This document shows, one piece after another, positions 2 to 44,400 of a DNA stretch of 64,000 bases (its first letter is position 1; each line of letters starts with the position of its first letter). This DNA is from a virus. Location: positions 67,810 through 131,809 of IMG/VR virus record IMGVR_UViG_3300044949_001773. The stretch is one strand, 5' to 3'. The position numbers and the translations under genes were made by a program. Below the pieces are notes generated by a model. The model had not been told where the DNA came from. It saw nothing but the letters and a program-made list of their open reading frames with translations, and did not search any database.

Positions 2-1063
2 ATGGGAGTCCCATCACAAGAAGCGGATAAAAATAAAGTGGTGGAAAATTTATCCGAAATACTAAAAAAAATTCCAAGCTTAAATGGGTTGTTTTTTGAT
101 ATTGAAAATGCTATAAAGAATTTAATACCTGGAGGTGGTGGAGCAACTGGAGGAGAAGCAGCTGGTCAATTAATTCCAGGAGATGCGCCTCCAGAAATTA
201 AAGCCTTAATGTCTACTATTTCTGGCGGTGAAGGGGGACCCAATTCTGTACAGGGAATTGGAGAGGTTCCGGGTCTTTCGGATATGACTATAGATCAGGC
301 AATAGCTAAAGCTAAATCTTATATTGGTAAAGGATCTGAAACTGGAGCATTGGGAGCATTTCAATTTCATTCCTCATATCTAAGGGAAAGGGCGGTTTCT
401 GCAGGATTAAATCCGGCAATTGAAAAGTTTAGTATGGAAAATCAAATTAAAATAATGCGTAATTTTATGGCAGTTGTTTATGGAGAAGGTGGTGAAGTAA
501 AACTATTAGAGTCATTAAAGTCTGGTGGATTACAAACTGATGTATTTCCAAAACTTTCTAGAAATCTTGGTTGGCCATCTTTACCTGGAGGTAGTCAACC
601 TAATGTACACACGCCTCAAGCAGCTTCTAGATATCAAAAATATCTTCAAAAATACTCTCAAGGTGGGGGAACTATGCCTTCGCCATCAACCCCATCCCCA
701 GCCCCAACACAATCTCCAGCACCAGCCCCAGCAGCTACTTTAATACCATCTGGCACGCCATCGCAAATATCTTCAGATAGCCCTAGTGATTCAATTACTG
801 CAGCTGAAAAAATCGATACTGTTCAAATTCAATCATCCCAATCTCAAGCAAGATCTCCGGAACCTATTCAACAATATGCCAATTATGAAAAACCATCACA
901 AGGGCAAGGAGCAATTGTTTTATTACCCGGAAAATCTCAATCACCAATGCCGATGAACAGTGGTGGGGAGGGTGCCATGCCTTCCGTTACAATTTCTCAA
1001 ACTGACATATTAAATAGTTACTACAGAGCTCAATTAATGGGATTCTTATATAAACAAGGATAA
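2..1063 (+). CDS. Tail-associated lysozyme/lytic transglycosylase-like protein (probably 5'-truncated by the window)
   Basis: Motifs ISGGEG, MTIDQAI, ALGAFQF, KFSMENQ and WPSLPG resemble lambda R-like muramidases; Pro/Ser-rich linker; directly upstream of the baseplate hub gene. Confidence 0.6.
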   Translation: MGVPSQEADKNKVVENLSEILKKIPSLNGLFFDIENAIKNLIPGGGGATGGEAAGQLIPGDAPPEIKALMSTISGGEGGPNSVQGIGEVPGLSDMTIDQAIAKAKSYIGKGSETGALGAFQFHSSYLRERAVSAGLNPAIEKFSMENQIKIMRNFMAVVYGEGGEVKLLESLKSGGLQTDVFPKLSRNLGWPSLPGGSQPNVHTPQAASRYQKYLQKYSQGGGTMPSPSTPSPAPTQSPAPAPAATLIPSGTPSQISSDSPSDSITAAEKIDTVQIQSSQSQARSPEPIQQYANYEKPSQGQGAIVLLPGKSQSPMPMNSGGEGAMPSVTISQTDILNSYYRAQLMGFLYKQG

Positions 1064-18853: not shown

Positions 18854-18885
18854 CAAACTATTCATAAATAAAATAAAACTCTAAA

Positions 18886-19359
18886 ATGGCAGATAGATAT
18901 CCTCTTATATTTGATCCAGGTGATAATAAATTTAAAGAACTTCCTACTGGAGATAATCTAAATCTTCAAGGAAATGGTATTATTAATGCGTCATCAATTA
19001 GTTCTACTGGATTTATTACTGGAAAGAGAAGATTCCCAGTTTATAATAATACAGTAACCGAAACTAATGTTACATTGACACTTTCTGATTTAAACATGGT
19101 ATTGTTACTTAGAACAAATGTTCCAAGAATTATTAACTTACCATCAACTACAGGATTACAAATTGGAGATTGGATTAAAATCGTTGATATAGGTTCTTCA
19201 GATACTAATAGAGGAAATTCATATAAACAAAATATAACCATTGTTCCTAACGGAGCAAGAGTTCAAGGAGATCCAGATTCTCTTATAGTTGATATTGACG
19301 GACACTCAATAACATTAATGTGGTGTGGTGAAACATATAATTGGCGTATAGTAGATTAA
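18886..19359 (+). CDS. Fibre adaptor protein (paralog of the 7140..7697 C-domain)
   Basis: INLP...IGDWIKIVD...NITIVPNG...D.LIVD...WRI motif. Confidence 0.6.
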   Translation: MADRYPLIFDPGDNKFKELPTGDNLNLQGNGIINASSISSTGFITGKRRFPVYNNTVTETNVTLTLSDLNMVLLLRTNVPRIINLPSTTGLQIGDWIKIVDIGSSDTNRGNSYKQNITIVPNGARVQGDPDSLIVDIDGHSITLMWCGETYNWRIVD

Positions 19360-19377
19360 TTTAAAAGGAAACATACA

Positions 19378-20406
19378 ATGACTTTAAGACTTTCTCAAAT
19401 AAAAGATAGTAGTGAAATAGTAGATTCAACTATCACTATAAAACTTTCTGATTATGGAACAATATCCGATTTAGGTACACATCAATCAGCCGTAAACAAT
19501 GCGGATATCTTTAAAATTGCTTATCAAGATATTTTAAGTAAAAGATTTGGAATGTTTAACGCAGCAGTATGCTACTTAGAATGTCCTCCAGGTGATTATT
19601 ATTTTGGAGACAATCCAAGTGGAGATTCAAATTATTATACTATGATGTTGAATCATCCGCAAGCCGCAAATATATCAATACGAGGAATCACTTCTGGAAC
19701 AAAACCATCAAATAGTGCTTTGTCTTCAGCATCAACGGTTAATGATAGATACAATTTATTAAAAGCATATTACAAAACAAGATTTCATTTTAAAAGAAAT
19801 GGAATTCTTGGGGGGTTGAGTAATACTACTGGGGCAAGGGCACCTGGTCTTCATAAAATAGGTGTATTTGGAAGTTATAAAGATGCTCCAGGATCTTTTG
19901 ATACGACATATACTGGATTTGCTAGAGGAATAACTGGAAGTATAAGACTTGAATATTGTTGCGTTCATGGTTTTGGTATTAATGGAAATGGTAATAGTTG
20001 GGGTCTCGGTACAGATGGTGGTGGAAAAATAGATACATATGATATTCAAGTTGTAGATTGTGCAAGAGGATTTTTTGCTCAACGTAATGGAACGATAAAT
20101 TCATTTGGAGATGCCTGTAGCATTCATAATATAGCAGGTACATCTGGTCAAGGATTACTAGCAATGGACAGTGCTTCAATATATTTTGCTGGAGGAGGAA
20201 CTGGATATGTGGCAAATTGTTCCAATACCGGAGTTATAGCATATTCTGGAGGAATAATTAGGTTTGGGAATGGGGGAACTCATACAGTTACTTCAACTGT
20301 TAAAGAAAATTTATATGCCGATACATTAGGGTTAATTGTTGGCGATGCAACTACAGTTTCCTACAGTACAAAATTCTCTCAACGCGGCGCAAGAATTGAA
20401 GTATAA
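19378..20406 (+). CDS. Putative receptor-binding protein with parallel beta-helix
   Basis: PPGDYYF motif followed by Gly/Asn/Cys ladder-type repeats; AAAGGA RBS. Confidence 0.55.
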   Translation: MTLRLSQIKDSSEIVDSTITIKLSDYGTISDLGTHQSAVNNADIFKIAYQDILSKRFGMFNAAVCYLECPPGDYYFGDNPSGDSNYYTMMLNHPQAANISIRGITSGTKPSNSALSSASTVNDRYNLLKAYYKTRFHFKRNGILGGLSNTTGARAPGLHKIGVFGSYKDAPGSFDTTYTGFARGITGSIRLEYCCVHGFGINGNGNSWGLGTDGGGKIDTYDIQVVDCARGFFAQRNGTINSFGDACSIHNIAGTSGQGLLAMDSASIYFAGGGTGYVANCSNTGVIAYSGGIIRFGNGGTHTVTSTVKENLYADTLGLIVGDATTVSYSTKFSQRGARIEV

Positions 20407-20458
20407 ACTATAATAAATAAAACTAAAGGGAGGGATAGTGAACTCCTAAGGAGAAGAA

Positions 20459-23400
20459 ATGAGTATTAACAAAAACTTCATAGTAAAAAATGGCATTGAA
20501 GTTGCTGAAGATCTTATTTTTGCCGAAAATGGTAAAGTTGGCATAGGAACAACTGTACCGTTAAGAACTATTGAAATTGATGGCGATATATCATTTACTG
20601 GAAAAATATATGCCCCTTCGGAGAATCCATTATATTCATCTAGCGGAACGGTAAATTCAACCTTTCCAAATGCTATAATCACAAATGAAAATACTGATGA
20701 TTTTAGAGTATATGATATCCTAAATGACACTTCTGGTTATTTAGAGACAAATACTATAGTTACAGGTATTGGAAATAACAGAATTTTCATTTCTCCAAAT
20801 CATACAAGAACTTCTGGTTCCGATGCGGTCAATATTTCCATTTATAGACCAGTATCAACTGGAAGTACAAATAATGTACTAGTTTCTCAAGGTGATGAAC
20901 CGCCCGTCTGGAAGCAAATGCCAGATGCGTTTAATGTTATTGGAGGAATTGCGTCTGTAACTTCATTGCAAGTTGATGGACCTTCAAACTTACAAACAGT
21001 AACTGCTCTAGAATATCTTGGGGATGGTACTAGACTATCCGGAATTGTAACTCAAATATTAGCTGGAACTGGAATTAATATTCAAGAAACTCAAGTTCCA
21101 GGAAAAGGTCTAGTAGAAATCACTTCATATTTTCCAATTGGGAAAACAATATTTGTAACTCAAAATGGAGATGATGATAATAGTGGATTGACTGAAAGTG
21201 ATGCTAAAAAAACTATAAGAGCGGCAGCAGCGATTGCTTTTCCTGGAGATACTATAAAAGTATATCCAGGTGTCTATGTTGAAGAAAATCCAATTTATCT
21301 ATCAAAGAGAGTTGCTGTAGAAGGTACTGAACTTAGAAACTGTGTAGTAACTCCAAAATATCCAGGAAAAGACTTATTTTACGTAAATAATAGTTGTCAT
21401 ATAACTGATTTAAGTTTTATCGGTCCAGAAATGTTTAATGGGGCATCAATTGTTAGTTTGCAACCATTAACTGGAGTTGCTACTGATAGATATTTTGATG
21501 CTGCCAGAATGATCCGTTATAATTTAGATTATATAGCAAGAGAATCTGTTGGTTTTCTTACAAGTGGATTTAGTGGATTTGCTGGAGGACATAGAGAACA
21601 AGATGCCGCAAGACTTATTGATTTAAATACTAATTTTATTGCAGCAGAAGCGATAGGATTTCTCACATCGACCAATTATAAGAATCCAGTATTTCAGATA
21701 GTAGATTCTTCAGGAAATCCTACAGATCCAGTAAATTGTTCAGACGATATCAAATCCATATTGGGAGCAATTTCCGACGATCTAAAAGCGGCAAGTAATA
21801 AAAAAAGTATAGGAGCAGCAAAATCATACTTTGACGGGGATGGAGTTTTACTTCATATTACTGGAAGCGATCCAACAGGATACTCTGTTAAAGAAGCCAC
21901 AATTGCTGCTATTAATCACGCAGTAGGCATTGTAACTCACGTAATTAATAATGTATCTTATGCGGGAACAACATATAGTAATTTAACGCAAGATACTACT
22001 AGCTATTCTCCAGTTATAGTAAGCGGTGGTTGTACTAGTACAATAGAAAAAATACAAGATCTTTCTGACATTATTACAGGTGGTCTTATAAATTCCTCAA
22101 CTTTTAATACTTATATTTCCGGAATTACTACAGTATATGGAGTAAATCTTGATATCAAAGATTGTGCCGATGATGTAAAAGATATTTGGAAGTGCGTAAT
22201 TCATGATATTACAAGAGGTGGAAATTCTCGTTGCGTTGCCGCTGGAAGATCTTATTACGATGAGAATTGGAATCTAATACCTCAAATTCTAAAAAACCCT
22301 CAAGAAGTAAATCAAACAATAAAAACCTTAGATTATTCGTTCAATGTTGCTCGTTCTATTATTAACAATGTAACTTGGGGAGGATATCCAGTAGGAGTAT
22401 CAACAAATGTTACAAATGCTAATTATAATAATGTAACTGGAATAGCAACAATTACTGCTACCAATCATGGTCTTTTACAAAATGACGCCGTAAAAGTAGT
22501 AGGACTTGGTTTTACTTGCCCATCAGATGGTGGTGTTCTAACACTAACATATCCAACAGGAAGTTATGGTTATGTTTTTAATGTACACAAAGTAGTAGAT
22601 AATAATAAATTTGAAGTAATTGTTGGAAAATCCACACTACCTCATACTTATGTTTCTGGAGGAACTATTCAAAAGTATGGTAATTTTCAAAATGAGTATA
22701 CTCAGGTAAAGGATTTGGGAATGCAGATTGATCCAGATACTGGGTTCAATAATGGCATTAATGGATGCGCTAATGTAGTTTCTGCCTTAAGATCTTGCGT
22801 AGGTGTTGTAACAACCATAATTGGTTATGGCCAAACTTCAGGAATAAATGTTACATATCCAGGTAATTCTGGAATTGGTTATAATACCCTCAAAAATGTA
22901 ACAGATGCTATATACGACAATGTAACTGGAATTACTACTTTAACTGTGCCTGGTTTAATAGTCAAAAAAGATAGCATAGTAGAAGTAAGAGATTTAGTAT
23001 TTGAGTGCGAATCCGGTGGGGTCACTGCATCTCAAAAATTCCCATCAGGTAAATATGGTTACGAATTTGATGTAACTAAAGTAAATCAAGACGGATCATT
23101 TGTAATTAATACTGGCGTTTCAACTATACCTCATACTTATGTAAGTGGAGGATTTATTGTAGATCGTTCAATTGAAGTTACAAATGCCATCTATGATCAT
23201 ACTACAGGAAATACCATTATTACTGCCCCAGGAGCATATGTTAGAAAAGATGATTTTGTAACATTGTATGATTTGGAATTTTCATGCTCAAGTGGAGCGG
23301 GAACGACAACTTTATATCCTACAGGAAATCTTGGTTATTCTTTTAAAGTAATAGACATCGTAACTCCTGGACAAACTTTTATAGTAAATACTGGAAAATC

Positions 23401-24565
23401 AACAATAGTTCATACTTATGAACAAGGAGGCGTTGTTCTTCCACCATATTCTCCAGGAGTTGGTCCAATTACGCAGGGTCCTTATGTTAGGAACTGTACC
23501 AATTTCGTACCAAATTCTATTGGGATGAAAATTGATGGGTTTGATGCAGAACCAGGAGATCAAGATGATATTGGCGTAACTGGTACAATGAGTGTTGACT
23601 CATACACCCAATATAATCAAGGTGGTATTGGAGTTTCAATTACTAATGGAGCTTATGCTCAGTTAGTATCTATCTTTACTATTTGCGATGATATTGCTAT
23701 ATTTACTGGTTCTGGAGGTCAATGTGACATAACAAACTCAAACTCATCATTTGGAAGATTGGGATTGGTTGCTGATGGAGTTGGTGACGCTGAAACTAAA
23801 TCAATTTATAGATATACAGGTGTTTGTGCTCAAGAAGCCGAGCAAGAACAAGATACTATTATTATTTCCGGATTAGGAAATTTGAGACCATATGATGGTC
23901 AATCAATTTATTTTGGTCAATTATACTATTTCGTCAATACAATTGAAGTCCTCGATGGAGGATCTGGATATGTGTCTCCGCCAACAGTGATAATAGATGA
24001 ACCGACAGGACAAAATGGAATTAGAGCAGAGGCTTCGGCAAATATCCAAAATGGAAAAGTCGTTTCTATAGATCTTATCAGTACGGGAACTCAATACGAA
24101 TCTCCACCATCAATACAATTATTGGGGGGTGGAGGAAATGGGGCTTCTGCTCAAGCCACTATGACAGCAATATATTATACAATTGAAACGGCAACTCTTC
24201 CTTCTGCGGGTATATCAACAGTAGTTTTAGCACAAAATCTAAATAATACAGTTGGTGCTGGGACTACAGTTTACTTTAGTCGTTTAAGTTTACAGATTAC
24301 ATCATCACATTCATTTGAATGGGTTGGATCTGGAAATGATATTAATAAAGCAAAACCAGCTTTAGGGGGTGTTGTAAATACAGATAATGAAGTTGTTAGT
24401 TTAAATGGTGGTCAAGTTGTATATACAAGTACTGACCAAGCAGGAAACTTTAGGATTGGTGATGGTATTGTGATTAACCAAATTACCGGTACTATTACTG
24501 GAAGAGCTTTCAGTCAAAGTATCTTAAATACAGTAAATCCACTCATTGTAGCATTAGGTAACTAA
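20459..24565 (+). CDS. Tailspike/fibre protein: beta-helix with inserted phycobiliprotein-like helical domains and repeated beta modules
   Basis: IFVTQNGDDDNSG...KTIRAA...PGVYVEENPI beta-helix start; paralog of 32449..34311; nested helical inserts at 21488-22825. Confidence 0.75.
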   Translation: MSINKNFIVKNGIEVAEDLIFAENGKVGIGTTVPLRTIEIDGDISFTGKIYAPSENPLYSSSGTVNSTFPNAIITNENTDDFRVYDILNDTSGYLETNTIVTGIGNNRIFISPNHTRTSGSDAVNISIYRPVSTGSTNNVLVSQGDEPPVWKQMPDAFNVIGGIASVTSLQVDGPSNLQTVTALEYLGDGTRLSGIVTQILAGTGINIQETQVPGKGLVEITSYFPIGKTIFVTQNGDDDNSGLTESDAKKTIRAAAAIAFPGDTIKVYPGVYVEENPIYLSKRVAVEGTELRNCVVTPKYPGKDLFYVNNSCHITDLSFIGPEMFNGASIVSLQPLTGVATDRYFDAARMIRYNLDYIARESVGFLTSGFSGFAGGHREQDAARLIDLNTNFIAAEAIGFLTSTNYKNPVFQIVDSSGNPTDPVNCSDDIKSILGAISDDLKAASNKKSIGAAKSYFDGDGVLLHITGSDPTGYSVKEATIAAINHAVGIVTHVINNVSYAGTTYSNLTQDTTSYSPVIVSGGCTSTIEKIQDLSDIITGGLINSSTFNTYISGITTVYGVNLDIKDCADDVKDIWKCVIHDITRGGNSRCVAAGRSYYDENWNLIPQILKNPQEVNQTIKTLDYSFNVARSIINNVTWGGYPVGVSTNVTNANYNNVTGIATITATNHGLLQNDAVKVVGLGFTCPSDGGVLTLTYPTGSYGYVFNVHKVVDNNKFEVIVGKSTLPHTYVSGGTIQKYGNFQNEYTQVKDLGMQIDPDTGFNNGINGCANVVSALRSCVGVVTTIIGYGQTSGINVTYPGNSGIGYNTLKNVTDAIYDNVTGITTLTVPGLIVKKDSIVEVRDLVFECESGGVTASQKFPSGKYGYEFDVTKVNQDGSFVINTGVSTIPHTYVSGGFIVDRSIEVTNAIYDHTTGNTIITAPGAYVRKDDFVTLYDLEFSCSSGAGTTTLYPTGNLGYSFKVIDIVTPGQTFIVNTGKSTIVHTYEQGGVVLPPYSPGVGPITQGPYVRNCTNFVPNSIGMKIDGFDAEPGDQDDIGVTGTMSVDSYTQYNQGGIGVSITNGAYAQLVSIFTICDDIAIFTGSGGQCDITNSNSSFGRLGLVADGVGDAETKSIYRYTGVCAQEAEQEQDTIIISGLGNLRPYDGQSIYFGQLYYFVNTIEVLDGGSGYVSPPTVIIDEPTGQNGIRAEASANIQNGKVVSIDLISTGTQYESPPSIQLLGGGGNGASAQATMTAIYYTIETATLPSAGISTVVLAQNLNNTVGAGTTVYFSRLSLQITSSHSFEWVGSGNDINKAKPALGGVVNTDNEVVSLNGGQVVYTSTDQAGNFRIGDGIVINQITGTITGRAFSQSILNTVNPLIVALGN

Positions 24566-24567
24566 AA

Positions 24568-24927
24568 ATGGCACAAGTTGCACTTAATAAATTTAGAACA
24601 ATCCGTGTAGGAATTACCACTCAAATGGTAGGAATCTATACATGCCCAGTAGGTGTAGCATCTATTGTAATTCTTTCACAAGTTACTAATGTTTCTACTG
24701 GTTCTTCACTTGGCAATTATAAAGTTACTGCTGTTCATTCTAGAACATCAGAATCTCAGATTGATTTTACATTTGCCAATGATATCACTATACCGCCGAA
24801 CGATGCCTTTAATCTAATTTCCGATGGAAGATTGGCATTAGAAACTAATGATGTAATTAAAATAAAATCAAATAGTGAAGGAAAATTAGAATTGCTTTTA
24901 AGTGTCCTGGAAACCGCAAAACAGTAA
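24568..24927 (+). CDS. Small structural adaptor (paralog of 34316..34657)
   Basis: ALN.F.T...IYT.PVG...V.L.QVTN...G.L.LE..D...S.LET shared motif. Confidence 0.7.
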   Translation: MAQVALNKFRTIRVGITTQMVGIYTCPVGVASIVILSQVTNVSTGSSLGNYKVTAVHSRTSESQIDFTFANDITIPPNDAFNLISDGRLALETNDVIKIKSNSEGKLELLLSVLETAKQ

Positions 24928-24931
24928 GTAA

Positions 24932-27900
24932 ATGACTAAAAGATATAACTCAGGAAGAGTACAAAAGCTTCCTCAATCTGGAATTACTACAGACAGATAC
25001 GAATTTTTAGGGTTAGAACAGGCAGAACCCGATTTGGGCGATCCTATAGTAGGAGTATCATCTGTACAGGCTCGCCCATTTAATGGTAATATATATGAAT
25101 GGTATATTTTAGCATCTGATAATAGTGGAGCGGGAAAAAGATATTGGTTACCAAAGGACATTGTTATAGCAGAGAATGTAAGGCAAGCAGGTGCTATAAC
25201 AATTAGAAGTAATGATAATTTAATCGGAATACCTAATGGAGTATATGATTTAAATTTTAAAGGTGGTATTACTATTACTGCTCCAGGAACTGTTGCTGGA
25301 ATAGGCAATTCTGGAGTAGATATAGAAATCACTAATGTTCCAGAAGCAGAAAGATCTGAGCAAGCTGGAAATTTGGAAGGAGGAAATCCAGGATCATTGC
25401 CATATCAAGAAGCGACAAATTCTACGGTATTTTTGCCAGGTCCTGGACTGGAGAGACAAGTTTTATCATATAATCCGACAACAATTGCTCCTACTTGGAG
25501 AAACATTTTAGATTTAAAACCTATAGAAGTTGAACAAAAATTACAAGATCAAAATTATTACTTATCATACCTAGTATCTACAGGGTCAACATCAACAATT
25601 GGAATTGGACAATCTGTATTATCATTTAATCCATCAAAAATAAGATTAGGTATAGGAACAGATAATCCATCATCAACTTTAGATGTACGTGGAGATGTTA
25701 TCATCTCAGGAATATCCACTTTTGAATCAAACTCAACATTTAAAAAATCAATAATTGTCCAAGAAAATTTTAATGTAACTGGATTATCAACTTTCAATAA
25801 TAGAGTAAGCATTGGAGCCACTTTAAGTGTAACTGGCGTATCAACTTTTAGTAATAATGTAAGCATTGGAGCCACTTTAAATGTAACTGGTGTATCAACT
25901 TTTAGCAATAATGTAAGTATTAGTAAAACTGATGGTCTGTTAAATGTAAAGTCACCTGCGATTTTTACTGGAATTACAACAGTCAATACACTTACTGCTC
26001 AATCTCTTTCACCAGATGGCATTGATTATGGTACAAATTTGTACGTACCTGTGGCAAACGCAGTGGGATCTTGGACATGGCAGCCAGTATTTGATGCTGG
26101 AGCAGGAAGTATTGATGGAATTACTATATTTGAAAATGGTGCTCAAGTAGGAACAGATATAATAGCACTAGATTTCTTAAATCAAAATTATTCAATTACA
26201 CTATCGGGGTCAGTTGCAAACATAGCATTTAGCGAAACACCAAATTTTACTTCAATTACCGCAGGTTTTAGTTCAGAAGTTACACTCAATTCTACTGGAG
26301 TTAAGGTCTCTGGAATCGTAACATCAACAAAACTTGATGTTGGTTCTCTTAATGCGGATTCTTCTGGAATTAGGGTTTCTGGATTTGTTACTACTACTAA
26401 TCTAAAAGTTACAAATAATGCTACAATAGATAATAATTTAACAGTAACAGGTGATTTAACTGTTAATGGTCAAACTACCACTATTAATAGCGTTACACTT
26501 ACGGTAGATGATAAATTAATATCATTAGCATCAACCGCAACTCCTTCGGACATTGGAGCAGATGGTGGTGGTATTGAGTTAAAAGGAAATACTGATCACA
26601 CTATTTTATGGAGCAATGCTAATGATTCTTGGGACTTTAGTGAAAATTTAAATATAATTACTGGTAAAGTTTACAGAATTAATAATGCCTCTGTATTGAG
26701 CGCAACTTCTCTTGGAGCTGGAGTAACAAATTCTTCATTAACCTCCTTAGGAACAATTACTACAGGTATTTGGCAGGGTAGTCAAATCGATGACAATTAT
26801 ATTGGCACTATAAACGACAGTAATAAGGTTTCTCTAAGTGCTCTTGATATTGATGGTGCAGCAGAAACTACTTCAGTAGTTGATGCGGATTTGCTCATCA
26901 TTGACGATGGTGCTAATGGGACAAATCGTAAAGTTACTGCTTCAAATTTAAAAACTTATGTTGGTAGTAACTTATCACTTAGCGGTTCTCTTAGTGGAAA
27001 TCTCAATTTAAATGGAAATGATATAATTGGAACCTCTGGTAATATTAATATTAGTGGAAATATTAAAGCTGGCATTATAACTGCAACGACTTTTAATGGA
27101 AGTCTTAGTGGAACTGCTACGACAGCAACCGATTTGTCTAGAAGTGTCAATACTCCAGTAACAGGAGGATTGACAGGGGGTGGGCAATTAAATCAAGATT
27201 TAAGCCTTTCATTAAAAAATGCAGCATCATTATCCAATAATACTATTTTAAAATGGAATTCCACTAATGGAGAGTTAACTAATGCTTCTATAACAGACAC
27301 TGGATCCTTAGTAACTGTATCCAGTACTATAAAATTAGCAGGAATTCAAGATAGTAGTAATTCTGCAGGATCAGCAAATAATGTTCCAATTGCTAATGGT
27401 AGTGGAGGATGGTCTTGGGGAACGGTAGCCAGCTCTGGAGCTCTTACTGATATTGTTAATGATACAACACCTCAATTAGGTGGTAATCTAGATCTAAACA
27501 GTAAAAATATTAATGGAACCGGAAACATTAATATTAATGGAAACATTACCGCTGGCATTATAACAGCAACGACTTTTAATGGAAGTCTTAGTGGAACTGG
27601 AAACATTAATATTAATGGAAACATTACCGCTGGCATTATAACAGCAACTACTTTTAGTGGGAGTTTTAGTGGAACCGCAACTGGTATTGATAAGAGTGTC
27701 ATTGCCGGTAATGGATTAACCGGTGGAGGAGCATTAACTTCTGATGTTACATTAAATGTTGGTGCAGGAACTGGAATTACAGTCAATGCTGATGACATAG
27801 CTCTTAAAAATTCTTCTTCTTTAACTTCAAATCGAGCTCTTAAATGGGACGGAACTCAACTATCAAATACTAATATAACAGATAATGGTACTCAAGTATC

Positions 27901-29056: not shown

Positions 29057-29064
29057 AAACCACA

Positions 29065-29403
29065 ATGGCAGTTCCGGCAATTAACATTACTATTGAAAAG
29101 GGGACTTATTTTGAAAATACTTTTTATATCAATACTGAAGATGAAACATCTTATGATTTATTAGATTATTCTGCAATTGCTAAGATCAGAAAGCACCCTG
29201 GCTCTTCTGTATTTCATTCATTTAATGTTCATATGGAGCCAGAAATAGGTCTAATTAGATTAATTATGCTACCATCAGTCTCTTCATTATTAAGTGAAGG
29301 TAGAAATTACTATGATATAGTTTTGACATATACTCCAGATCCGGTCTACAAAATAAAAGTGATTGAAGGAACTGCTATGGTTATTCCATCAATTTCAGTA
29401 TAA
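29065..29403 (+). CDS. Small virion structural protein (Ig-like fibre connector)
   Basis: NITIEKGT.F...KIRKHP...GRNYYDIVLT...KVIEG motif common in phage fibre connectors; late promoter at 29044. Confidence 0.6.
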   Translation: MAVPAINITIEKGTYFENTFYINTEDETSYDLLDYSAIAKIRKHPGSSVFHSFNVHMEPEIGLIRLIMLPSVSSLLSEGRNYYDIVLTYTPDPVYKIKVIEGTAMVIPSISV

Positions 29404-29744
29404 TGTCAGATTTAAAAAAAGGACTAGAATACAAAGTAAAATTGGGGAAACCAAAGACATTTAAAGTTGTTTCGGAAAGAACCATGCCATCAAATTACTT
29501 TCACGAATTATATGATATTGATATCAATAATATAACAAGAGAAAGTAATGATGTAAATCAGAATCAATTTGTCATCATGTATGACAGTTCAAATAATAAA
29601 TTCAAATTAGTTGATCCAGATAATGTTTTAGTAGCAGCAGCTTCTACTACAGGAGCTTCTGCAAATGGCACTGAAAGTGGATTACCTGATCAATTCGTAA
29701 CATCAGTTGAAGATAGTATTGATATTGATGGTGGATATTTTTGA
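29403..29744 (+). CDS. Small structural protein ending in DGGYF
   Basis: 113 aa, coupled (TAATG) to the previous gene. Confidence 0.6.
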   Translation: MSDLKKGLEYKVKLGKPKTFKVVSERTMPSNYFHELYDIDINNITRESNDVNQNQFVIMYDSSNNKFKLVDPDNVLVAAASTTGASANGTESGLPDQFVTSVEDSIDIDGGYF

Positions 29745-29769
29745 GTAATAAAAATTAACGAGTAGAAAA

Positions 29770-32394: not shown

Positions 32395-32448
32395 TGATAA
32401 ATATTATTAAATAAAAGAATCTGTATATCTTCTAAAATGGAGTGATGA

Positions 32449-34311
32449 ATGCCAGATCCTATAATCCGATTTAAACGATCTTCAATACCTGGAAAAAAAC
32501 CAGCCATAGAGCAACTTCCTTCAGGGGAAATAGCTTTAAATACTCATGATGGTGAAATTTATATTCGTAGAGAAAGATCTGGCGTAGGTACTGATATTGT
32601 ATCAGTTAGTGCTGGTGCTACTGTTACAAACATTATCTACGTAACGAAAGATGGAAATGATAATAATACTGGTAAAAAATTAGGTGATGCTAAAGCAACT
32701 ATTAAAAATGCTGTAGAGAATGCAGAAGAAGGATCAATAATTAAAATAAGTGCTGGAGTATATGAAGAAGATAACCCAATAACAGTTCCAAAACAAGTCA
32801 GTATATTTGGAGATAGTTTAAGAGAAGTATCTGTTAAACCTTTAAATGATAATGATTTATTCAGAGTAGGAAATGGAAATTATATCACTAATATTTCATT
32901 TATTAGTGATGGGCCAATGCCAAATACATCTATAGTTGCTTTTGATCCCACAAAACCGCAATTTATCAATCAATCTCCATATGTTCAGAACTGTACTAAT
33001 TTTATTGATAGTAGTATTGGTTTGAAAATAGATGGCCGTCATGCAATAGGACCAACAAAATCAATGGTTCTTGATAGTTTTACGCAATATAATCCAAACG
33101 GAATAGGAGCTTCAATCACAAATAGTGCTTATGCCCAATTAGTGTCAATGTTCACTATTTGTACTGATATGGCAGTTTATTGCGGAAGCGGTGGAGCATG
33201 TGATTTAACAAACTCAAATTCATCATTTGGAAATTATGGGTTAGTTGCTGAAGGTGTAGGAGCACTTCAATATACTGGATTATCAATTAATAATAATGAT
33301 CCTGGTTTTGATACGATTACTTTAGATTTGAGTGCTCCAGTATTAGGAGTTTCTACGGCATCGTATGATAATTTATCTGGAGAATTAATAATACAAACTA
33401 CTTCAGACCATAATTATAATGTAGGAATGGCGGTTAATATTTCTGGATTGGGATTTACATGTTCTTCTGGACCAGGAATTGTTACATATCCAAGTGGAAG
33501 TAGTGGGTATGTATTCAATATATCCCAAATAAATTCTTCAGATACATTTAAAACTTATGTCGGAATTTCAACTTTAGAGCATTTTTATGTATCTGGAGGA
33601 TCTGTAAGACCAGATGTTGTTAGACCTTTTGATGGACAAGTTGTTTATTTTGATAAGTTATATTATGAAATCGATAGAGTTAATGTTTCTTATGGAGGAA
33701 CTGGATATACAAACAATACAACAATAAATTTTCAATCTCCTTCAACAAGTTGGGGAGTTCCTGCTCAGGCGACATTAGAAGTTGTAAATGGATCAATTAC
33801 AAATGTAAATATAGTTTCTAGCGGAAGAGGTTATCAATCAGTTCCAGCAATATTAATAAGCCCTCCAGAAGGAAGTACAGATCTTGCTTCATTAGAAGTT
33901 GTAATAAGACCAAAGTATTATTTAATATTAAGTTCTACTCAAATAACTAATGATTTCTGCACAATTCAGTTAAATGATAATGTCCCATACTCTGTGGGCA
34001 TTGGAACTACAGCATACTTCTTCAAACAAAGTAGATTATTGGCATCAAGTCACTCATTTGAATATATTGGAAGTGGAACTGATATAGATACTGCGTTACC
34101 AGTTTATGGCGGAGTTCCGGTTCAAGAAAATGAAACAAGATCTATAGATGGGGGTCTTGTAGTTTATACGAGCACAGACCATTCAGGAAACTTCAGAGTT
34201 GGTGATGGAGTTGTTATTAACCAAGCAACGGGAACAATCTCTGGAACATTTTATTCCAAGAGTTTATTTTCAACAATGACTCCATTTATCTTAGCACTAG
34301 GAGGGGATTAA
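32449..34311 (+). CDS. Tailspike/fibre protein with beta-helix (paralog of 20459..24565 lacking the helical inserts)
   Basis: Starts IRFKRSSIPGKKP...GEIALNT.DG; IYVTKDGND...ATIKNA...AGVYEEDNPI; ends SHSFEYIGSG...VVYTSTDHSGNFRVGDG...ALG. Confidence 0.75.
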   Translation: MPDPIIRFKRSSIPGKKPAIEQLPSGEIALNTHDGEIYIRRERSGVGTDIVSVSAGATVTNIIYVTKDGNDNNTGKKLGDAKATIKNAVENAEEGSIIKISAGVYEEDNPITVPKQVSIFGDSLREVSVKPLNDNDLFRVGNGNYITNISFISDGPMPNTSIVAFDPTKPQFINQSPYVQNCTNFIDSSIGLKIDGRHAIGPTKSMVLDSFTQYNPNGIGASITNSAYAQLVSMFTICTDMAVYCGSGGACDLTNSNSSFGNYGLVAEGVGALQYTGLSINNNDPGFDTITLDLSAPVLGVSTASYDNLSGELIIQTTSDHNYNVGMAVNISGLGFTCSSGPGIVTYPSGSSGYVFNISQINSSDTFKTYVGISTLEHFYVSGGSVRPDVVRPFDGQVVYFDKLYYEIDRVNVSYGGTGYTNNTTINFQSPSTSWGVPAQATLEVVNGSITNVNIVSSGRGYQSVPAILISPPEGSTDLASLEVVIRPKYYLILSSTQITNDFCTIQLNDNVPYSVGIGTTAYFFKQSRLLASSHSFEYIGSGTDIDTALPVYGGVPVQENETRSIDGGLVVYTSTDHSGNFRVGDGVVINQATGTISGTFYSKSLFSTMTPFILALGGD

Positions 34312-41400: not shown

Positions 41401-44400
41401 AATGAAGTAGATGCGTTTTCAATCGCAACAGAAGAAGGTATTATTAATACTTTAAGTGGTAATAACTTATCATATAATTCTGGTATCATTACATCTTTAT
41501 CTGGTACTAATATTTCATACAGTGGAGTTGGAACAATTTTAACTCTACAAGGTACTAATATATCTTATACGGGCGTTGGAACTTTTGGGCAAGTAGGAAT
41601 TACTACAGCTACAATAGGGACAATAAGTGCTACAAATGTTTCTATTTTTGGAAACTTAAGTGTTTCCGATTTAACAGTAGGTATTGTTACAGCTAACGAT
41701 GTAATTACAGATAATATTACATCTACAGAAGGTACTATCACAAATCTTGATGGTCTGAATTTAAGTTACAGTGGAATTGGAACAATTTCAAAAATTGAAT
41801 CCACAACTATCACAACAACTAATTTAGGAACACAGAATTTAAACGCAAGTGGCATTGGAACTATTGCCACATTAAAAACGACTAATTTAGATAATTTAGA
41901 ATCTATTACTACTGATGAATTTTATGCCAGAATTGGCATTATAACCGAACTATCTGGAAATACTATTGATTATAATACTGGTTCAGTTGATAATCTTTCT
42001 GGAGTTAATTTAAATTATAGTGGAATTGGAACTATTAACCAAATTGATGTCAATATTGGTTCAGTTGATTATTTGAATGGTGTAAATGCGAATTATACTG
42101 GTATTTCTACATTCAACGTAGCTGGCATCACAAGTTTAACATCACAGTCTATTTTTGGTTCTGCTGGCATTATTACATCATTAACTGGAGAAACTTTAAA
42201 CTTCTCAACAAGCGCAGAAATTTCTAATGTAACTATAGGTATTGGAAATACGGATTTAATTGTATCTGGAGATGCAAGAATAACAGATACGCTAACTATA
42301 GGTCCAGATTCTATCATAATTAATGGGATATCAAATAGTATAACTGGAGTATCAACATTAACTTCTAATTATGCTTCTATTGGCACAATCACAGGATCAG
42401 ATTCCACATATACAAATGTAAATACGGACAGTTTAACATTTGCAGGAATCAATACCAGTAATAACTTTAACACTCAAGTCAATATTGTAGCCTCAAATTC
42501 TGGCGTATCAACTTCATATAATTTAATACTTCCGGCTCAATTGGGCATTCCGGGAACAGTATTGACATTAGAATCCGATGGCAATCTTGGATTTACAACT
42601 GCTGGCTTGTATGAAAATAGAATCTATGTCTCACCTGTCAATGGTGATGATTCCAATGATGGTAAAGCAAGGCCAGTAAAAACTATTAAGAAAGCGGCTC
42701 AGTTAGCATCTTTTGAATCATTTGTTCTTCCAGGTGGTAGATTCCTTGATGCGGCAAGTGTATTAAGCTCAAATAAAGATTTTATTGCTGCGGAAGTTGT
42801 CGGATTTGTAACAACAACATATCCTTCAATTCTTTCAAATCCAGATTATAATGAAGCAATTTGTAAGAGAGATGTTGGTTATATTGTTGATGCAATAAGT
42901 TACGATTTAAGTTATGGAGGAAACTCAAAGACTGTAGAAGCCGGTTTAGCATATTGGAATGCAGGAACATCATATGTTGATGGCGAATCTATTGAAACTA
43001 TTGCCGGTTATAATCATATTATAACCATTTCAAAATATATTATTAATAATATTGATATTCCTCAGTCATATCAAGGAATTCAAACAGTATTCCAAACAAA
43101 AGATTTGACATTGGCATATGATGCTAATTGTAGTCCATCTTCTTATAGTGAAAATTGTTGCTCTGATGTCTGGTCTGCAATTGGTTCTTTTGTAGGAATT
43201 GTAACAAGTATCATTGGTATTGGAACAACAGCTGCTCCATCAGTAACTCTACCGACTTCAAAATCAACTCCAGTTGCTGTTATTGTAGAGGCTGGAGAAT
43301 ATGTAGAAGATAATCCGATTATTTTATACGAAGATGTAGCTATTATCGGAGATAACTTAAGAAATACGATTATCAGACCACAAAATGCAGGTAAAGACTT
43401 ATTCCGCGTTAGAAATGGATGTTATTTGACTGGATTTGCTCTTAAAGATTATGTAGATCCTGCTGGTGTTCCTCAATTTACATTTAATTATGCGGTTGCT
43501 TTTGACGATCCTTCAGATCCGACAACATCAAGAGTAGGATACGCGATTAAAGAAACAAAACCAATCATCACAAGATCACCTTACATTCAAAACTGCTCTA
43601 TTCTTTCATTCTTAGGAGCAAATGGTATTCTTGTTGATGGTTCTAAAGTAGATACTTTAAATACGGCAATTATTCCGGAAGAATCAGAGAATCCTGTAGA
43701 GGGAGAGCAACCAGAATTTGGTAAATCTATGGTTGCCGCCGCATTTACTATGGTTTCTTTCGGAGGTATTGGATGGCGTGTTATTAACGATGGATATTCT
43801 CAGGTCGTTTCTTGCTTCCAAATTTTCTGTAGATATGGTTCTCTAGCTCAGTCTGGTGGTTATTTATCAATTACAAACTCTGCTACAAACTTTGGATTAT
43901 ATGCTTTAAGATCTACTGGTTACAATGGAAGATCTTATATCTTTGATAGGGGATTAGTATCATCAACCGGAACAAGTGGAGGTCTTCAAACTCTTAAAGT
44001 TATTGGTCTTGGAAGAGCTGATCAAGAGCTTTATGTTTTAAGATTTATTAATCGTTCTACAGGAATTGATGAAACTTCAAACTTTAAATTAGCTCCAATA
44101 ACTAGAGAAGTTGATATTTCTGTAGGCGTCAATACAGTAACTAATATAATTGGTATTCAAACACATGGATTTACAAATGGGGATAGTGTAATTTATTTGG
44201 GAAATGAATCCACAATTCCTCCCCAAGTTATTGGTGGTCTTGTAAACTTAAATGAATATTATGTTGAATATGTAAATGATGATGAATTCAAGCTTTATGA
44301 AGATGATAGCTTAACTCGTATTGTAGATCTAACTTCTGTAACAAGTGGTATTAATACATTCGTTAAGGGTAATCAAGAATTCTTCAATTCAGAAATGTTG

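What the first reader, a model, noticed from the sequence alone, without database searches (positions are those of the whole stretch)
21488..22825. Two more, nested copies of the phycobiliprotein-like domain in a second fibre, at a different insertion site
Seen: copy A starts RYFDAARMIRYNLDYIARESVGF. It is interrupted by a complete copy B (REQDAARLIDLNTNFIAAEAIGF...NCSDDIKSILGAISDDL...TIAAINHAVGIVTHVINN...GCTSTIEKI). Copy A resumes at DCADDVKDIWKCVIHDITRGGNS...TIKTLDYSFNVARSIINN, is interrupted again by a beta module, and ends at GCANVVSALRSCVGVVTTIIG. Both copies keep the two Cys (21737/22031 and 22163/22766), but CxRD has become CxDD. The whole block sits between SIVSLQP and ITQGPYVRNC, a different loop from the giant fibre, and paralog 32449..34311 lacks it. 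Inference: this is a mobile domain inserted independently into fibres, and the R-to-D change might alter or abolish chromophore binding.
Basis: partly seen in the sequence, partly recalled or inferred. Interest (0 to 1): 0.75.

Follow-up and report, generated by a model that had tools for sequence, protein, structure and literature searches.

The report
Nested phycobiliprotein-like domains in phage fibre
A tail-fibre protein of a marine cyanobacterial virus carries two domains related to its host's light-harvesting pigment proteins, one inserted inside the other, but both have swapped the positively charged pigment-anchoring residues for negative ones, so they are probably unpigmented structural relatives of the possibly pigment-binding copies found in other fibres of these viruses.

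Summary
The 1368-aa fibre ORF (20459..24565) has a 667-aa block (aa 337-1003) in a loop of its beta-helix. The paralog 32449..34311 has 5 residues there. In the block, a globin-fold copy A is split three ways by a complete copy B and by a beta-barrel module.

An AlphaFold2 model (pLDDT 87.6) places copy B closest to phycobiliproteins: the top 8 of 8 structural hits, Z 11.8-14.7. The four cysteines are invariant in 109-110 of 110 rows. The nested block occurs in over 1000 metagenomic fibres and in the cultured phage S-SCSM1. S-SKS1, Sf-CH8 and S-T4 show simpler forms.

A tree places B as a duplicate of A, not an import from the giant fibre's copy.

A and B keep the family's co-conserved Cys/Asp/Tyr/Thr site. 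Both basic residues flanking the Cys are acidic or Asn instead. The three isolates whose only copy is this CxDD type lack the lyase gene cpeT, which 16 of 20 domain-bearing isolates carry.

Best reading: insertion-tolerant scaffold domains that do not bind bilin in the canonical way. Pigment binding is untested.

The scan found phycobiliprotein-like fibre domains before on other genomes. My literature searches found no paper on them.

The parts
20459..24565 (+). Fibre ORF, 1368 aa (P0001)
   Evidence: ORF list and translation. PHROG tail fiber phrog_17885, E 2.9e-272. tblastn finds only cyanophage relatives.
21134..21466 (+). Host beta-helix domain, N-terminal rungs (aa 226-336), ending SIVSLQP
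   Evidence: Aligns to paralog aa 47-167. Beta strands in the 905-aa model.
21467..23467 (+). 667-aa inserted block (aa 337-1003), absent from paralog 32449..34311
   Evidence: BLASTP of P0001 against P0002.
21482..21568 (+). Copy A, first helix pair (aa 342-370)
   Evidence: Profile positions 12-40, i-E 1.3e-5. Helices at model residues 7-20 and 22-33.
21584..22096 (+). Copy B, a complete phycobiliprotein-like domain (aa 376-546). Motif NCSDD. Cys427 at 21737, Cys525 at 22031.
   Evidence: BLASTP E 5e-13 to the giant-fibre copy. VIA Z 14.7, 13.8 and 13.4 to phycoerythrin beta, ApcE and allophycocyanin over model 43-211. Cys invariant in 110 of 110 rows.
22157..22387 (+). Copy A, middle helices E-G (aa 567-643). 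Motif DCADD. Cys569 at 22163.
   Evidence: Profile positions 60-150, i-E 6.3e-6. BLASTP E 2e-6. Cys in 109 of 110 rows.
22391..22678 (+). Beta-barrel module 1 (aa 645-740), inserted in the G-H loop of copy A
   Evidence: Strands at model residues 309-407. VIA Z 9.7 to the E1 FCCH domain (4p22_B) and Z 9.5 to the phi92 endosialidase barrel (4hiz_A).
22763..22843 (+). Copy A, last helix H (aa 769-795). Cys770 at 22766.
   Evidence: Profile positions 154-209, i-E 4.4e-4. BLASTP E 6e-6. Helix at model residues 437-460. Cys in 110 of 110 rows.
22883..23443 (+). Beta-barrel modules 2 and 3 (aa 809-995)
   Evidence: 43-44% identical to module 1 and to one module in the paralog at 33334-33612.
23468..23866 (+). 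Host beta-helix resumes (aa 1004-1136, ITQGPYVRNC...)
   Evidence: 56% identity to paralog aa 173-292.
42739..43218 (+). Reference copy in the giant fibre (CKRD motif), at another loop of the homologous beta-helix
   Evidence: Pfam PF00502, 24.4 bits against a cut-off of 22.2 and 23.9 bits. It sits in a different tree clade.
32449..34311 (+). Paralog fibre without the block (P0002)
   Evidence: No hit of the domain profile among the window's ORFs other than P0001 and the giant fibre.

Best explanation
The block is a product of recursive domain insertion into a surface loop of the beta-helix of a cyanomyovirus tail fibre.

Architecture:
- A phycobiliprotein-fold (globin-like) domain, copy A, sits in the loop.
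- A duplicate of it, copy B, is inserted in A's loop between the first helix pair and the Cys-bearing helix.
- A roughly 95-aa beta-barrel module is inserted in A's G-H loop, and two more barrels follow.

Site chemistry:
- Both copies belong to a family of phycobiliprotein-like domains seen, among phage records, only in cyanophage structural proteins.
- They keep the family's co-conserved Cys/Asp/Tyr/Thr site.
- They belong to a CxDD lineage in which the two basic residues that anchor the bilin propionates in phycobiliproteins (the residue before the Cys and the one two after it) are Asp, Asn or Glu. Their role as anchors is recalled knowledge.

Inferred function:
- They most likely act as rigid, insertion-tolerant scaffold domains on the fibre surface that display the beta-barrel modules. 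Those modules may bind glycan.
- They most likely do not hold a bilin in the canonical pose, unlike what I propose, untested, for the CxRD copies such as the one in the giant fibre.

Shown: the architecture, the homology, the conservation and the distribution. Inferred: the scaffold role and the lack of pigment.
For: Architecture
- BLASTP pieces and profile pieces are collinear.
- The AlphaFold2 model of aa 335-800 has pLDDT 87.6 and pTM 0.84, with the expected helix and strand order. The 905-aa model shows the same order flanked by beta strands.

Fold
- The top 8 of 8 VIA hits are phycobiliproteins (Z 11.8-14.7; 4xxi_A rmsd 2.0 over 117 residues). They rank above globin sensors at Z 9-11.
- Copy A as a discontinuous unit matches globins over model residues 7..460 (Z 7.3 and 6.5).

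Homology
- HMMER aligns the Cys with the CxRD Cys of phycoerythrin and phycocyanin chains.
- The giant-fibre copy passes the Pfam PF00502 cut-off.

Conservation
- C427 110/110, C525 110/110, C569 109/110, C770 110/110, D430 110/110, D572 109/110.

One functional site
- 1641 copies with the Cys keep D45 in 100%, Y72 in 99.9% and T89 in 87%.
- The 40 copies without the Cys keep them in 25, 28 and 19 of 40, while D56 stays 40/40.
- A and B keep all of these residues.

Charge swap (1393 CxRD copies against 291 Cx[DE]D copies)
- K before the Cys becomes D or N.
- R becomes D or E.
- G47 becomes K.
- D51 becomes K or R.

Evolutionary series in isolates
- S-SKS1: an uninterrupted A-type copy.
- Sf-CH8 and S-T4: A plus a barrel.
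- S-SCSM1: nested A[B] with further barrels.

B as a duplicate of A
- One clade, SH-aLRT 95.

cpeT
- Over the family cut-off in 16 of 20 domain-bearing isolates and 0 of 3 without the domain.
- The three clear exceptions (Sf-CH8, S-SKS1, S-T4) have only the lone A-type CxDD copy.
Against: - The first Cys and the Asp three residues on stay invariant in A and B although the Arg is gone. So does the rest of the site. This argues that the site still does something and is not decaying.
- Syn9 has cpeT, yet the copies I read there are CEDD, CKDD and CKTD. CxRD against CxDD is therefore not a clean predictor of the lyase.
- S-SCSM1's copy A has CRRD and P0089's has CARD within the same clade, so the position flips back and forth.
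- Host lyases and bilins are present in the infected cell, so the absence of a phage cpeT does not exclude attachment.
- The Cx[DE]D group is dominated by two lineages (A and B of the block family), so the charge swap may reflect few independent events.
- The 3-of-3 grouping was made after seeing the data.
- The scaffold or display role of the domain, and glycan binding by the barrels, rest only on architecture and on fold resemblance at Z about 9.5.
- I had no model coordinates, so I could inspect neither the pocket nor the Cys distances.
Confidence: 0.55

Rival explanations
1. Copies A and B are chromophorylated like true phycobiliproteins. A bilin is thioether-linked to the first Cys, and perhaps to the second Cys at the start of the last helix. 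The fibre is then pigmented and could gate adsorption by light. The acidic substitutions only tune the spectrum or the binding pose.
For: - The Cys/Asp/Tyr/Thr site behaves as one functional unit across the family and is intact in A and B.
- The Cys are invariant.
- The first Cys aligns with Cys84 of phycobiliproteins.
- The second Cys lies at the start of helix H, as does the Cys in VEDRCASLV of phycoerythrin beta. That piece of the alignment is non-significant, -3.8 bits.
- cpeT co-occurs with the domain family, 16 of 20 against 0 of 3.
- cpeT sits 0.7-1.5 kb upstream of the giant domain-bearing fibre gene in S-PM2, Syn1 and S-RSM4.
- All 314 phage records with a match are cyanophages or one marine virus, that is, hosts that make bilins.
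Against: - Both basic residues next to the Cys are replaced by acids. These residues hold the propionates in phycobiliproteins (recalled knowledge).
- Phages carrying only this copy type lack cpeT, 3 of 3. Two of them were also searched for a bilin reductase and lack it.
- No cpeT, bilin reductase or heme oxygenase is found in this 131.8-kb record. The record is only 61% complete, so this is weak.
- No copy of this family has any experimental evidence of pigment.
Confidence: 0.2
2. The two invariant Cys of each copy form an intradomain disulfide that stabilises an extracellular domain. The CxDD motif is purely structural.
For: - There are two invariant Cys per copy.
- The protein works outside the cell.
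- Among the best-scoring representative proteins, the second Cys accompanies 10 of 11 CxDD copies but only 78 of 766 CxRD copies.
Against: - The first Cys is kept in 688 of 766 CxRD copies that have no second Cys, so its conservation does not depend on a partner.
- Direct-coupling analysis of 982 copies recovers the helix G/H pairing. It puts the first Cys next to the start of helix G (pair 42-89 ranks first) and the second Cys next to the far end of helix G (best partner column 100). Pair 42-133 ranks 436 of 11,935. The two would then lie at opposite ends of helix G, some 25 to 30 Å apart by my estimate from its length of about 19 residues.
Confidence: 0.1
3. The helical units are generic globin-like or helical-bundle domains unrelated to phycobiliproteins, and the CxxD resemblance is convergent.
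For: - P0001 itself has no Pfam PF00502 hit at E <= 1.
- Profiles of copy B reach phycobiliprotein chains only at E 0.07-0.8.
- Foldseek against PDB gives no hit at E <= 0.001.
- Helical models often reach Z near 13-14 by chance (note).
Against: - All of the top 8 VIA hits are phycobiliproteins, at lower rmsd than the globins below them.
- 5 of the 6 PDB sequence hits, and 2 of the 3, are phycobiliprotein chains. Each printed alignment puts Cys on Cys.
- Copy B is homologous to the giant-fibre copy (E 5e-13), and that copy passes Pfam's own cut-off.
- The family consensus K-C-x-R-D-x-G matches KCARDIGY of phycocyanin alpha as printed.
Confidence: 0.05
4. The arrangement is not nested but segment-swapped. 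The first helix pair packs with the body of copy B, and the second helix pair with the body of copy A.
For: - The two N-terminal helix pairs are alike (both end in GFLTS).
- The STNYKNP loop after B's pair resembles the loop of the uninterrupted S-SKS1 copy.
- Two VIA alignments extend from copy A's second helix into copy B (model 18..210 and 16..210), though at rmsd 6.8-7.5.
Against: - The better alignments (rmsd 2.0-2.8) start at model residue 39-43, that is, at B's own helix pair.
- Globin hits spanning model 7..460 join A's first pair to A's body.
- The model is confident, with pTM 0.84.
Confidence: 0.05

Closest known systems
Phycobiliprotein subunits, above all beta chains (CpeB, CpcB, cryptophyte beta) and the ApcE bilin domain; Pfam PF00502
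   Same: - The globin-like fold, with the best structural matches (Z 11.8-14.7).
- The Cys at the start of the E helix aligns with the bilin-binding Cys of CxRD, and the Asp three residues later is kept.
- A sister copy in the same genome passes the Pfam cut-off.
   Different: - The copies sit inside a virion fibre rather than forming free 160-180-aa subunits.
- The best alignments begin near residue 34-50 of the phycobiliprotein, so there is no clear X-Y helix pair for alpha-beta pairing.
- The Arg of CxRD and the preceding Lys are acidic or Asn.
- The family has invariant residues of its own (D56, Y72, T89).
- P0001 itself gives no Pfam hit.
- Bilin binding is unknown.
CxRD-type phycobiliprotein-like domains of cyanophage giant fibre and baseplate proteins. 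The family has no name. It includes tandem arrays of up to 35 matched stretches in metagenomic proteins, and the copies in S-PM2, Syn1 and S-RSM4 'short tail fiber' genes.
   Same: - The same profile family.
- The same Cys/Asp/Asp/Tyr/Thr invariants.
- The same kind of host protein.
   Different: - A and B form their own clade.
- The basic residues are swapped for acids.
- Each nearly always has a second Cys.
- They are nested rather than tandem.
- They carry beta-barrel insertions.
S-SCSM1 ORF26, 'long tail fiber protein (virion protein)', 1478 aa
   Same: - The nested A[B] architecture at the same beta-helix loop.
- The best BFVD match, E 4.8e-29 and TMq 0.65.
   Different: - Its copy A reads CRRD and its copy B CQDD.
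- Its copy B is also split by a barrel.
- More barrels lie in its copy A.
- That phage has cpeT and a bilin reductase.
Beta-barrel domain of phage endosialidases (phi92, K1F) and the FCCH domain of ubiquitin E1
   Same: The fold of the roughly 95-aa inserted modules (Z 9.5-9.7, rmsd 2.1-2.2 over 79-82 residues).
   Different: Identity is only 15-21%, and no shared motif was tested. The function of the fibre modules is unknown.

Membership tests
Phycobiliprotein (Pfam PF00502) | Score at or above the Pfam gathering cut-off (22.2 bits) | tested here: not met
   P0001 has no PF00502 hit at E <= 1. The giant-fibre copy of the same genome does pass: 24.4 and 23.9 bits.
Phycobiliprotein (Pfam PF00502) | Globin-like phycobiliprotein fold | tested here: met
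   Copy B: the top 8 of 8 VIA hits are phycobiliproteins, Z 11.8-14.7, e.g. 4xxi_A at rmsd 2.0 over 117 residues. Copy A is seen only as a discontinuous globin match (Z 7.3 and 6.5), which I rate weaker. Foldseek gave no E <= 0.001.
Phycobiliprotein (Pfam PF00502) | Cys at the position of Cys84 followed by Arg86-Asp87 (CxRD) | tested here: not met
   The Cys and the Asp are aligned and invariant. The Arg position is D in 75 and E in 34 of 110 rows in copy B, and D in 99 of 110 in copy A.
Phycobiliprotein (Pfam PF00502) | Second attachment Cys in the G-H loop (beta-155 type) | tested here: inconclusive
   A Cys stands at the start of the last helix in both copies. HMMER pairs it with the Cys of VEDRCASLV in phycoerythrin beta only in a non-significant piece, -3.8 bits.
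Phycobiliprotein (Pfam PF00502) | N-terminal X-Y helices that make the alpha-beta heterodimer | tested here: inconclusive
   6 of the 8 phycobiliprotein alignments start at chain residue 34-50. The two that start at residue 13 borrow copy A's helices, at rmsd 6.8-7.5.
Phycobiliprotein (Pfam PF00502) | Covalently bound bilin | not testable with these tools
   This needs spectroscopy or mass spectrometry of virions or recombinant protein.
Cyanophage fibre phycobiliprotein-like domain family (unnamed) | Match to the family profile | tested here: met
   With the iterated profile, P0001 aa 376-551 scores E 1.4e-34 and aa 545-676 E 1.3e-17. Copy A's three pieces match the first profile.
Cyanophage fibre phycobiliprotein-like domain family (unnamed) | Co-conserved site C42, D45, D56, Y72, T89 | tested here: met
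   All five are present in A and B (the alignment rows printed). Their family frequencies are 98%, 99%, 99%, 99% and 86%.
Cyanophage fibre phycobiliprotein-like domain family (unnamed) | Basic residues K41 and R44 flanking the Cys | tested here: not met
   Copy B reads N-C-S-D and copy A reads D-C-A-D. For group frequencies.
Endosialidase beta-barrel / E1 FCCH fold (beta modules) | Fold similarity | tested here: inconclusive
   Z 9.5-9.7 over 79-82 residues. No functional residues were tested.
Right-handed beta-helix (pectate-lyase-like) host domain | Profile or fold match | tested here: inconclusive
   PF12708 at E 0.042 on the giant-fibre piece only. Foldseek on the 905-aa model gives the Klebsiella phage depolymerase 7vul_A at probability 0.87, TM 0.09-0.12.

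The most novel reading that the evidence does not exclude
The whole cyanophage family of phycobiliprotein-like fibre domains binds a ligand at the Cys/Asp/Tyr/Thr site. CxRD copies carry a bilin attached with the help of the phage's CpeT, which would make the virion pigmented and its adsorption light-gated. The acidic CxDD nested pair is a re-tuned member that binds a different partner at the same site, such as a cation or a bilin in another pose, or serves as the unpigmented counterpart. This window would then hold both states in one phage, a natural control pair.
Probability: 0.2. Interest if true: 0.9.

Novelty: new variant of a known kind. Interest (0 to 1): 0.62.

Why it matters
Phycobiliproteins are known as soluble antenna subunits of cyanobacteria, red algae and cryptophytes. 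Relatives built into virus tail fibres appear in no paper that my searches found.

If the CxRD copies carry bilin, three things would follow:
- Virions would be pigmented.
- The phage gene cpeT would have a substrate of the phage's own.
- The unexplained light-dependent adsorption of some cyanophages would gain a candidate sensor. In the passages I read of preprint 10.1101/167650, P-HM1 and P-HM2 did not adsorb in the dark while P-SSM2 did. In my survey P-HM1 has the domain and cpeT, and P-SSM2 has neither.

This finding adds three things:
- A domain nested inside its own duplicate, with intermediate architectures preserved in cultured phages.
- A conserved acidic variant of the site that can serve as a natural negative control.
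- Evidence that the domain tolerates large insertions in two loops.

Tried and rejected
- A megablast of the gene against phage records found nothing.
- Pfam on P0001 and on six representative proteins gave no significant family apart from a sub-threshold PF00502 hit on P0129.
- PF22842, listed for some homologues, did not reappear when I scanned P0008, so I drop it.
- Foldseek against PDB was weak for the 466-aa model (best E 0.024).
- Foldseek on the 905-aa model was uninformative. The top rows were large multi-domain proteins at probability 0.1-0.2 and TM about 0.07. I give them no meaning.
- A profile of copy-B relatives reached phycocyanin alpha only at E 0.8.
- I tested whether cpeT goes with CxRD copies specifically. 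It does not do so cleanly. Syn9 has cpeT with CEDD, CKDD and CKTD copies. S-SSM4 has CxRD copies and only a divergent CpeT-like ORF.
- I tested whether cpeT goes with the second Cys. There was no pattern.
- cpeT, bilin reductase and heme oxygenase were not found in the window's 131.8-kb record. It is 61% complete, so this says little.
- The script translated only the forward frames of the loci. S-RSM4, S-SKS1 and S-T4 were therefore missed there. I read the last two. S-RSM4's motifs were not read, and S-SKS1 and S-T4 are not in the tree.
- Only the loci of the best matches were read (30 at most), so motif lists per phage are incomplete.
- I considered an intradomain disulfide and rate it unlikely.
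- I could not obtain model coordinates. No Cys-Cys distance, pocket inspection or direct superposition of A, B and the giant-fibre copy was possible.
- Papers: Gasper et al. 2017 was not held, and Jia et al. 2010 was not read. What I say of them is recalled or comes from citing passages. Supplements are closed, so I did not see the virion proteome table of S-SCSM1. I rely on the record's note 'virion protein' and on passages of PMC9602691.
- The Fisher figures in the report are hand-computed hypergeometric values with no correction for relatedness.
Full report
**What the window is.** The window comes from a T4-like cyanomyovirus. tblastn of the 1368-aa ORF 20459..24565 (P0001) finds 400 phage records, nearly all Synechococcus or Prochlorococcus phages. 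The best is S-SKS1 at 49.5% identity. PHROG profiles call the protein a tail fiber (phrog_17885, E 2.9e-272). The record that holds the window is a 131.8-kb virus contig rated 61% complete.

**Observation.**
The four Cys codons are at 21737, 22031, 22163 and 22766.
- BLASTP of aa 344-789 against the giant-fibre domain gives three collinear pieces: copy B at E 5e-13, the middle of copy A at E 2e-6, and the last helix of copy A at E 6e-6.
- A profile of the giant-fibre copy plus copy B hits P0001 at aa 342-370, 376-546, 567-643 and 748-802. These match profile positions 12-40, 11-199, 60-150 and 154-209.
- The three pieces of A are independent of the profile. They tile one domain, with B in the gap.
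- P0001 aa 215-336 and aa 1004-1136 align to paralog aa 47-167 and aa 173-292. Aa 337-1003 is therefore a 667-aa insertion where the paralog has 5 residues.
- The giant fibre carries its copy at another loop of the homologous beta-helix.
- Among the window's 26 large ORFs, only P0001 and the giant fibre match the iterated domain profile.

**Structure.**
- An AlphaFold2 model of aa 335-800, built with 59 homologues, has pLDDT 87.6 and pTM 0.84.
- Its order of elements is: two helices (A), a full helical domain (B), three helices (A), a beta module, and one long helix (A).
- VIA-align against 48,161 PDB representatives puts eight phycobiliprotein entries on top:
  - 5aqd_M, phycoerythrin beta: Z 14.7
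  - 4xxi_A, ApcE bilin domain: Z 13.8, rmsd 2.0 over 117 residues
  - 8or7_A, allophycocyanin: Z 13.4
  - 7eyd, 7sc7, 9wg7, 1b8d and 8imk: Z 11.8-12.7
- Globin sensors and RsbR-type domains follow at Z 9-11.
- Two hemoglobins align over model residues 7..460 and 7..458 (Z 7.3 and 6.5). That is copy A read as one discontinuous globin fold.
- The beta module (model residues 311-407) resembles the FCCH domain of E1 enzymes (Z 9.7) and the beta-barrel of the phi92 endosialidase (Z 9.5).
- Foldseek against PDB was weak. The best E was 0.024. Phycoerythrin 5aqd_M scored E 0.29 with target-normalised TM 0.62.
- A 905-aa model of aa 226-1130 (pLDDT 76.5) shows the same order, flanked by beta strands and followed by two more barrels.
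- The three barrels of P0001 and one in the paralog are about 43% identical.

**Relation to phycobiliproteins.**
- P0001 has no Pfam hit to PF00502. The giant-fibre copy has one above the cut-off: 24.4 bits against 22.2, and 23.9 bits.
- Profile searches of PDB sequences are weak (E 0.07-0.8). Five of 6 hits and 2 of 3 hits are phycobiliprotein chains.
- Each printed alignment places the phage Cys on the Cys of ACLRD or KCARD.
- Membership for A and B therefore rests on the fold, on the motif alignment and on homology to the giant-fibre copy. It does not rest on a direct profile score.

**The family.**
- An exhaustive profile search found 850 clusters at E <= 0.001. They include giant proteins with up to 35 matched stretches.
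- In 1312 stretches from the best 147 proteins plus this window's two own pieces (P0001, P0003), the motif is C 98%, R 95% and D 99%.
- With an iterated profile over 1837 stretches, D56 and Y72 are 99%, T89 86% and N62 83%.
- The second Cys is rare family-wide, 16% at its column.
- Among the representatives, 688 of 766 CxRD copies lack the second Cys, while 10 of 11 CxDD copies have it.
- Copies that lack the first Cys (40) also relax D45 (25/40), Y72 (28/40) and T89 (19/40), but keep D56 (40/40). Copies with the Cys (1641) keep these at 100%, 99.9%, 87% and 98.6%.
- Cys, Asp45, Tyr72 and Thr89 thus behave as one site that is kept or lost together. A and B keep all of it.
- A direct-coupling analysis of 982 copies ranks pair 42-89 first and recovers the G/H helix pairing.
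- The second Cys couples best with column 100. Its pair with column 42 ranks 436 of 11,935.
- I infer that the two Cys lie at opposite ends of helix G and do not form a disulfide.

**What is special in A and B.**
- The nested block is conserved. There are 1068 hits, and 109 of the 120 listed cover it at 58-89% identity, at offsets of 55 to 828 in proteins of 1109-1951 aa.
- The counts below cover 110 rows: the window's own sequence plus those 109 homologues. The other 11 had partial coverage and were dropped.
  - C427 110/110, C525 110/110, C569 109/110, C770 110/110.
  - The Arg position is D in 75 and E in 34 rows in B, and D in 99 rows in A.
- Comparing 1393 CxRD copies with 291 Cx[DE]D copies, one face of the helix changes charge:
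  - K before the Cys (57%) becomes D (56%) or N (34%).
  - R becomes D or E.
  - G47 becomes K (68%).
  - Y/L48 becomes D (70%).
  - D51 (79%) becomes K or R (63%).
- The acidic group is dominated by the two lineages A and B, so few independent events may underlie this.
- From recalled knowledge of phycocyanin structures, Lys83 and Arg86 hold the bilin propionates and Asp87 the pyrrole nitrogens. On that basis A and B have lost both anchors and kept the Asp.

**History.** Cultured phages preserve simpler states at the same loop:

| Phage (gene) | Motif | State of the copy |
|---|---|---|
| S-SKS1 (SWZG_00012) | CADD | one uninterrupted A-type copy |
| Sf-CH8 and S-T4 | CRDD | an A-type copy split by one barrel |
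| S-SCSM1 (ORF26) | CRRD in A, CQDD in B | nested pair, with barrels in both |

- A maximum-likelihood tree was built on 69 core columns and 81 rows. S-SKS1, S-T4 and S-RSM4 are absent for a technical reason.
- The tree puts the window's A and B in one clade of 20 rows (SH-aLRT 95). The clade also holds both S-SCSM1 copies, Sf-CH8, the S-CAM7 CADD copy and 14 block-family copies.
- The giant-fibre copy sits elsewhere.
- B is therefore best read as a duplicate of A inserted into A.
- C-x-D-D copies occur in 15 of the 19 domain-bearing isolates whose copies I read.

**Link to bilin genes.** I surveyed 23 complete isolate genomes.
- The domain profile matches 20 of them.
- CpeT passes its cut-off in 16: 13 at E <= 0.001, and 3 more when fragments in one frame are summed.
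- CpeT passes in none of the 3 genomes without the domain. The hypergeometric p is 35/1771, or 0.02, computed by hand and uncorrected for relatedness.
- Four domain-bearing genomes fall below the cut-off. ACG-2014f has a weak candidate of 11.1 bits. Sf-CH8, S-SKS1 and S-T4 have none, and each carries only the lone A-type CxDD copy.
- I made that grouping after seeing the data.
- S-SCSM1, whose copy A reads CRRD, has cpeT and a bilin reductase. Sf-CH8 and S-SKS1 have neither.
- Syn9 has cpeT although the copies I read there are CEDD, CKDD and CKTD. The motif alone does not predict the lyase.
- In S-PM2, Syn1 and S-RSM4, cpeT lies 0.7-1.5 kb upstream of, and co-oriented with, the giant 'short tail fiber' gene that holds the domain copies.
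- A review counts cpeT in 31 of 153 cyanophage genomes, all myoviruses. It states that T-type lyases serve the Cys-153 position of the beta subunit (passages of PMC10452541).
- In the window's own record I found no cpeT, bilin reductase or heme oxygenase. The record is incomplete.

**Reading.**
- The architecture is settled.
- The copies keep a site that the family treats as functional, but with the pigment anchors reversed in charge.
- The only phages that manage without cpeT while having the domain are those with this copy type alone.
- I therefore hold that A and B are scaffold domains that do not bind bilin in the canonical way, and that they serve to carry the barrel modules on the fibre surface.
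- Pigment binding by A and B (confidence 0.2) and a disulfide role (0.1) remain open.
- Whether any copy of the family binds bilin is untested.

**What is known.**
- Four full-text searches found no paper on such a domain in phage fibres: cyanophage + tail fiber + phycobilisome; phycobiliprotein-like + phage; cyanophage + globin + fiber; PF00502 + phage.
- BFVD entries that match the model carry only generic names.
- This scan has reported phycobiliprotein-like fibre domains on at least eight other genomes, and the giant-fibre copy of this one.
- New here are the self-nested pair, the series of intermediate architectures, the acidic site variant with its cpeT pattern, and the co-loss analysis of the site.

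Noticed in passing
L101 (S-PM2 161500-177500), L102 (Syn1 17500-33500), L103 (S-RSM4 163000-179500): cpeT lies just upstream of, and co-oriented with, the giant 'short tail fiber' gene (T4-like GC 734) that carries the phycobiliprotein-like copies. In S-PM2 and Syn1 a 2OG-Fe(II) oxygenase gene sits between them. In S-RSM4 an HNH endonuclease gene and tRNAs do.
   Followed up: partly
P0124 (5984 aa) and P0125 (6382 aa): Metagenomic giant proteins with 34-35 matched stretches of the domain, at a period of roughly 130-150 aa. Nearly all are CxRD and lack the second Cys.
   Followed up: partly
window 24568-24927: A 119-aa ORF directly follows the fibre gene. ORFs of similar size follow the homologous genes in Sf-CH8 (342 nt), S-SKS1 (345 nt) and S-SCSM1 (339 nt, noted 'virion protein'). 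It may be a fibre assembly factor or a small virion protein. I did not test homology.
   Followed up: no
window 33334-33612 (paralog P0002) and 22391-23443 (P0001): The roughly 95-aa beta-barrel module is a second shuffled unit. It occurs three times in P0001 and once in the paralog at a different place, with an invariant Cys and the motifs FxC and HxY.
   Followed up: partly
P0253 (935 aa): Another split copy of the domain. Profile positions 10-95 lie at aa 82-162 and positions 85-208 at aa 271-393, so an insertion of about 108 aa sits at a third site, after the Cys-bearing helix.
   Followed up: no
L101 (S-PM2 RefSeq record): Sixteen tRNA features are annotated inside the 11.3-kb CDS S-PM2t009 and share its locus tag. 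This looks like an annotation artefact of the record.
   Followed up: no
S-SKS1 record, 32782-33021, minus strand: A weak second match of the domain profile (E 0.001) with two TGA codons inside, in a 225-aa open frame. It could be chance or a decayed copy.
   Followed up: no
P0076 (1736 aa): One homologue of the nested-block fibre has a bactofilin-like stretch (PF04519, 33.6 bits) in its variable N-terminal part.
   Followed up: no
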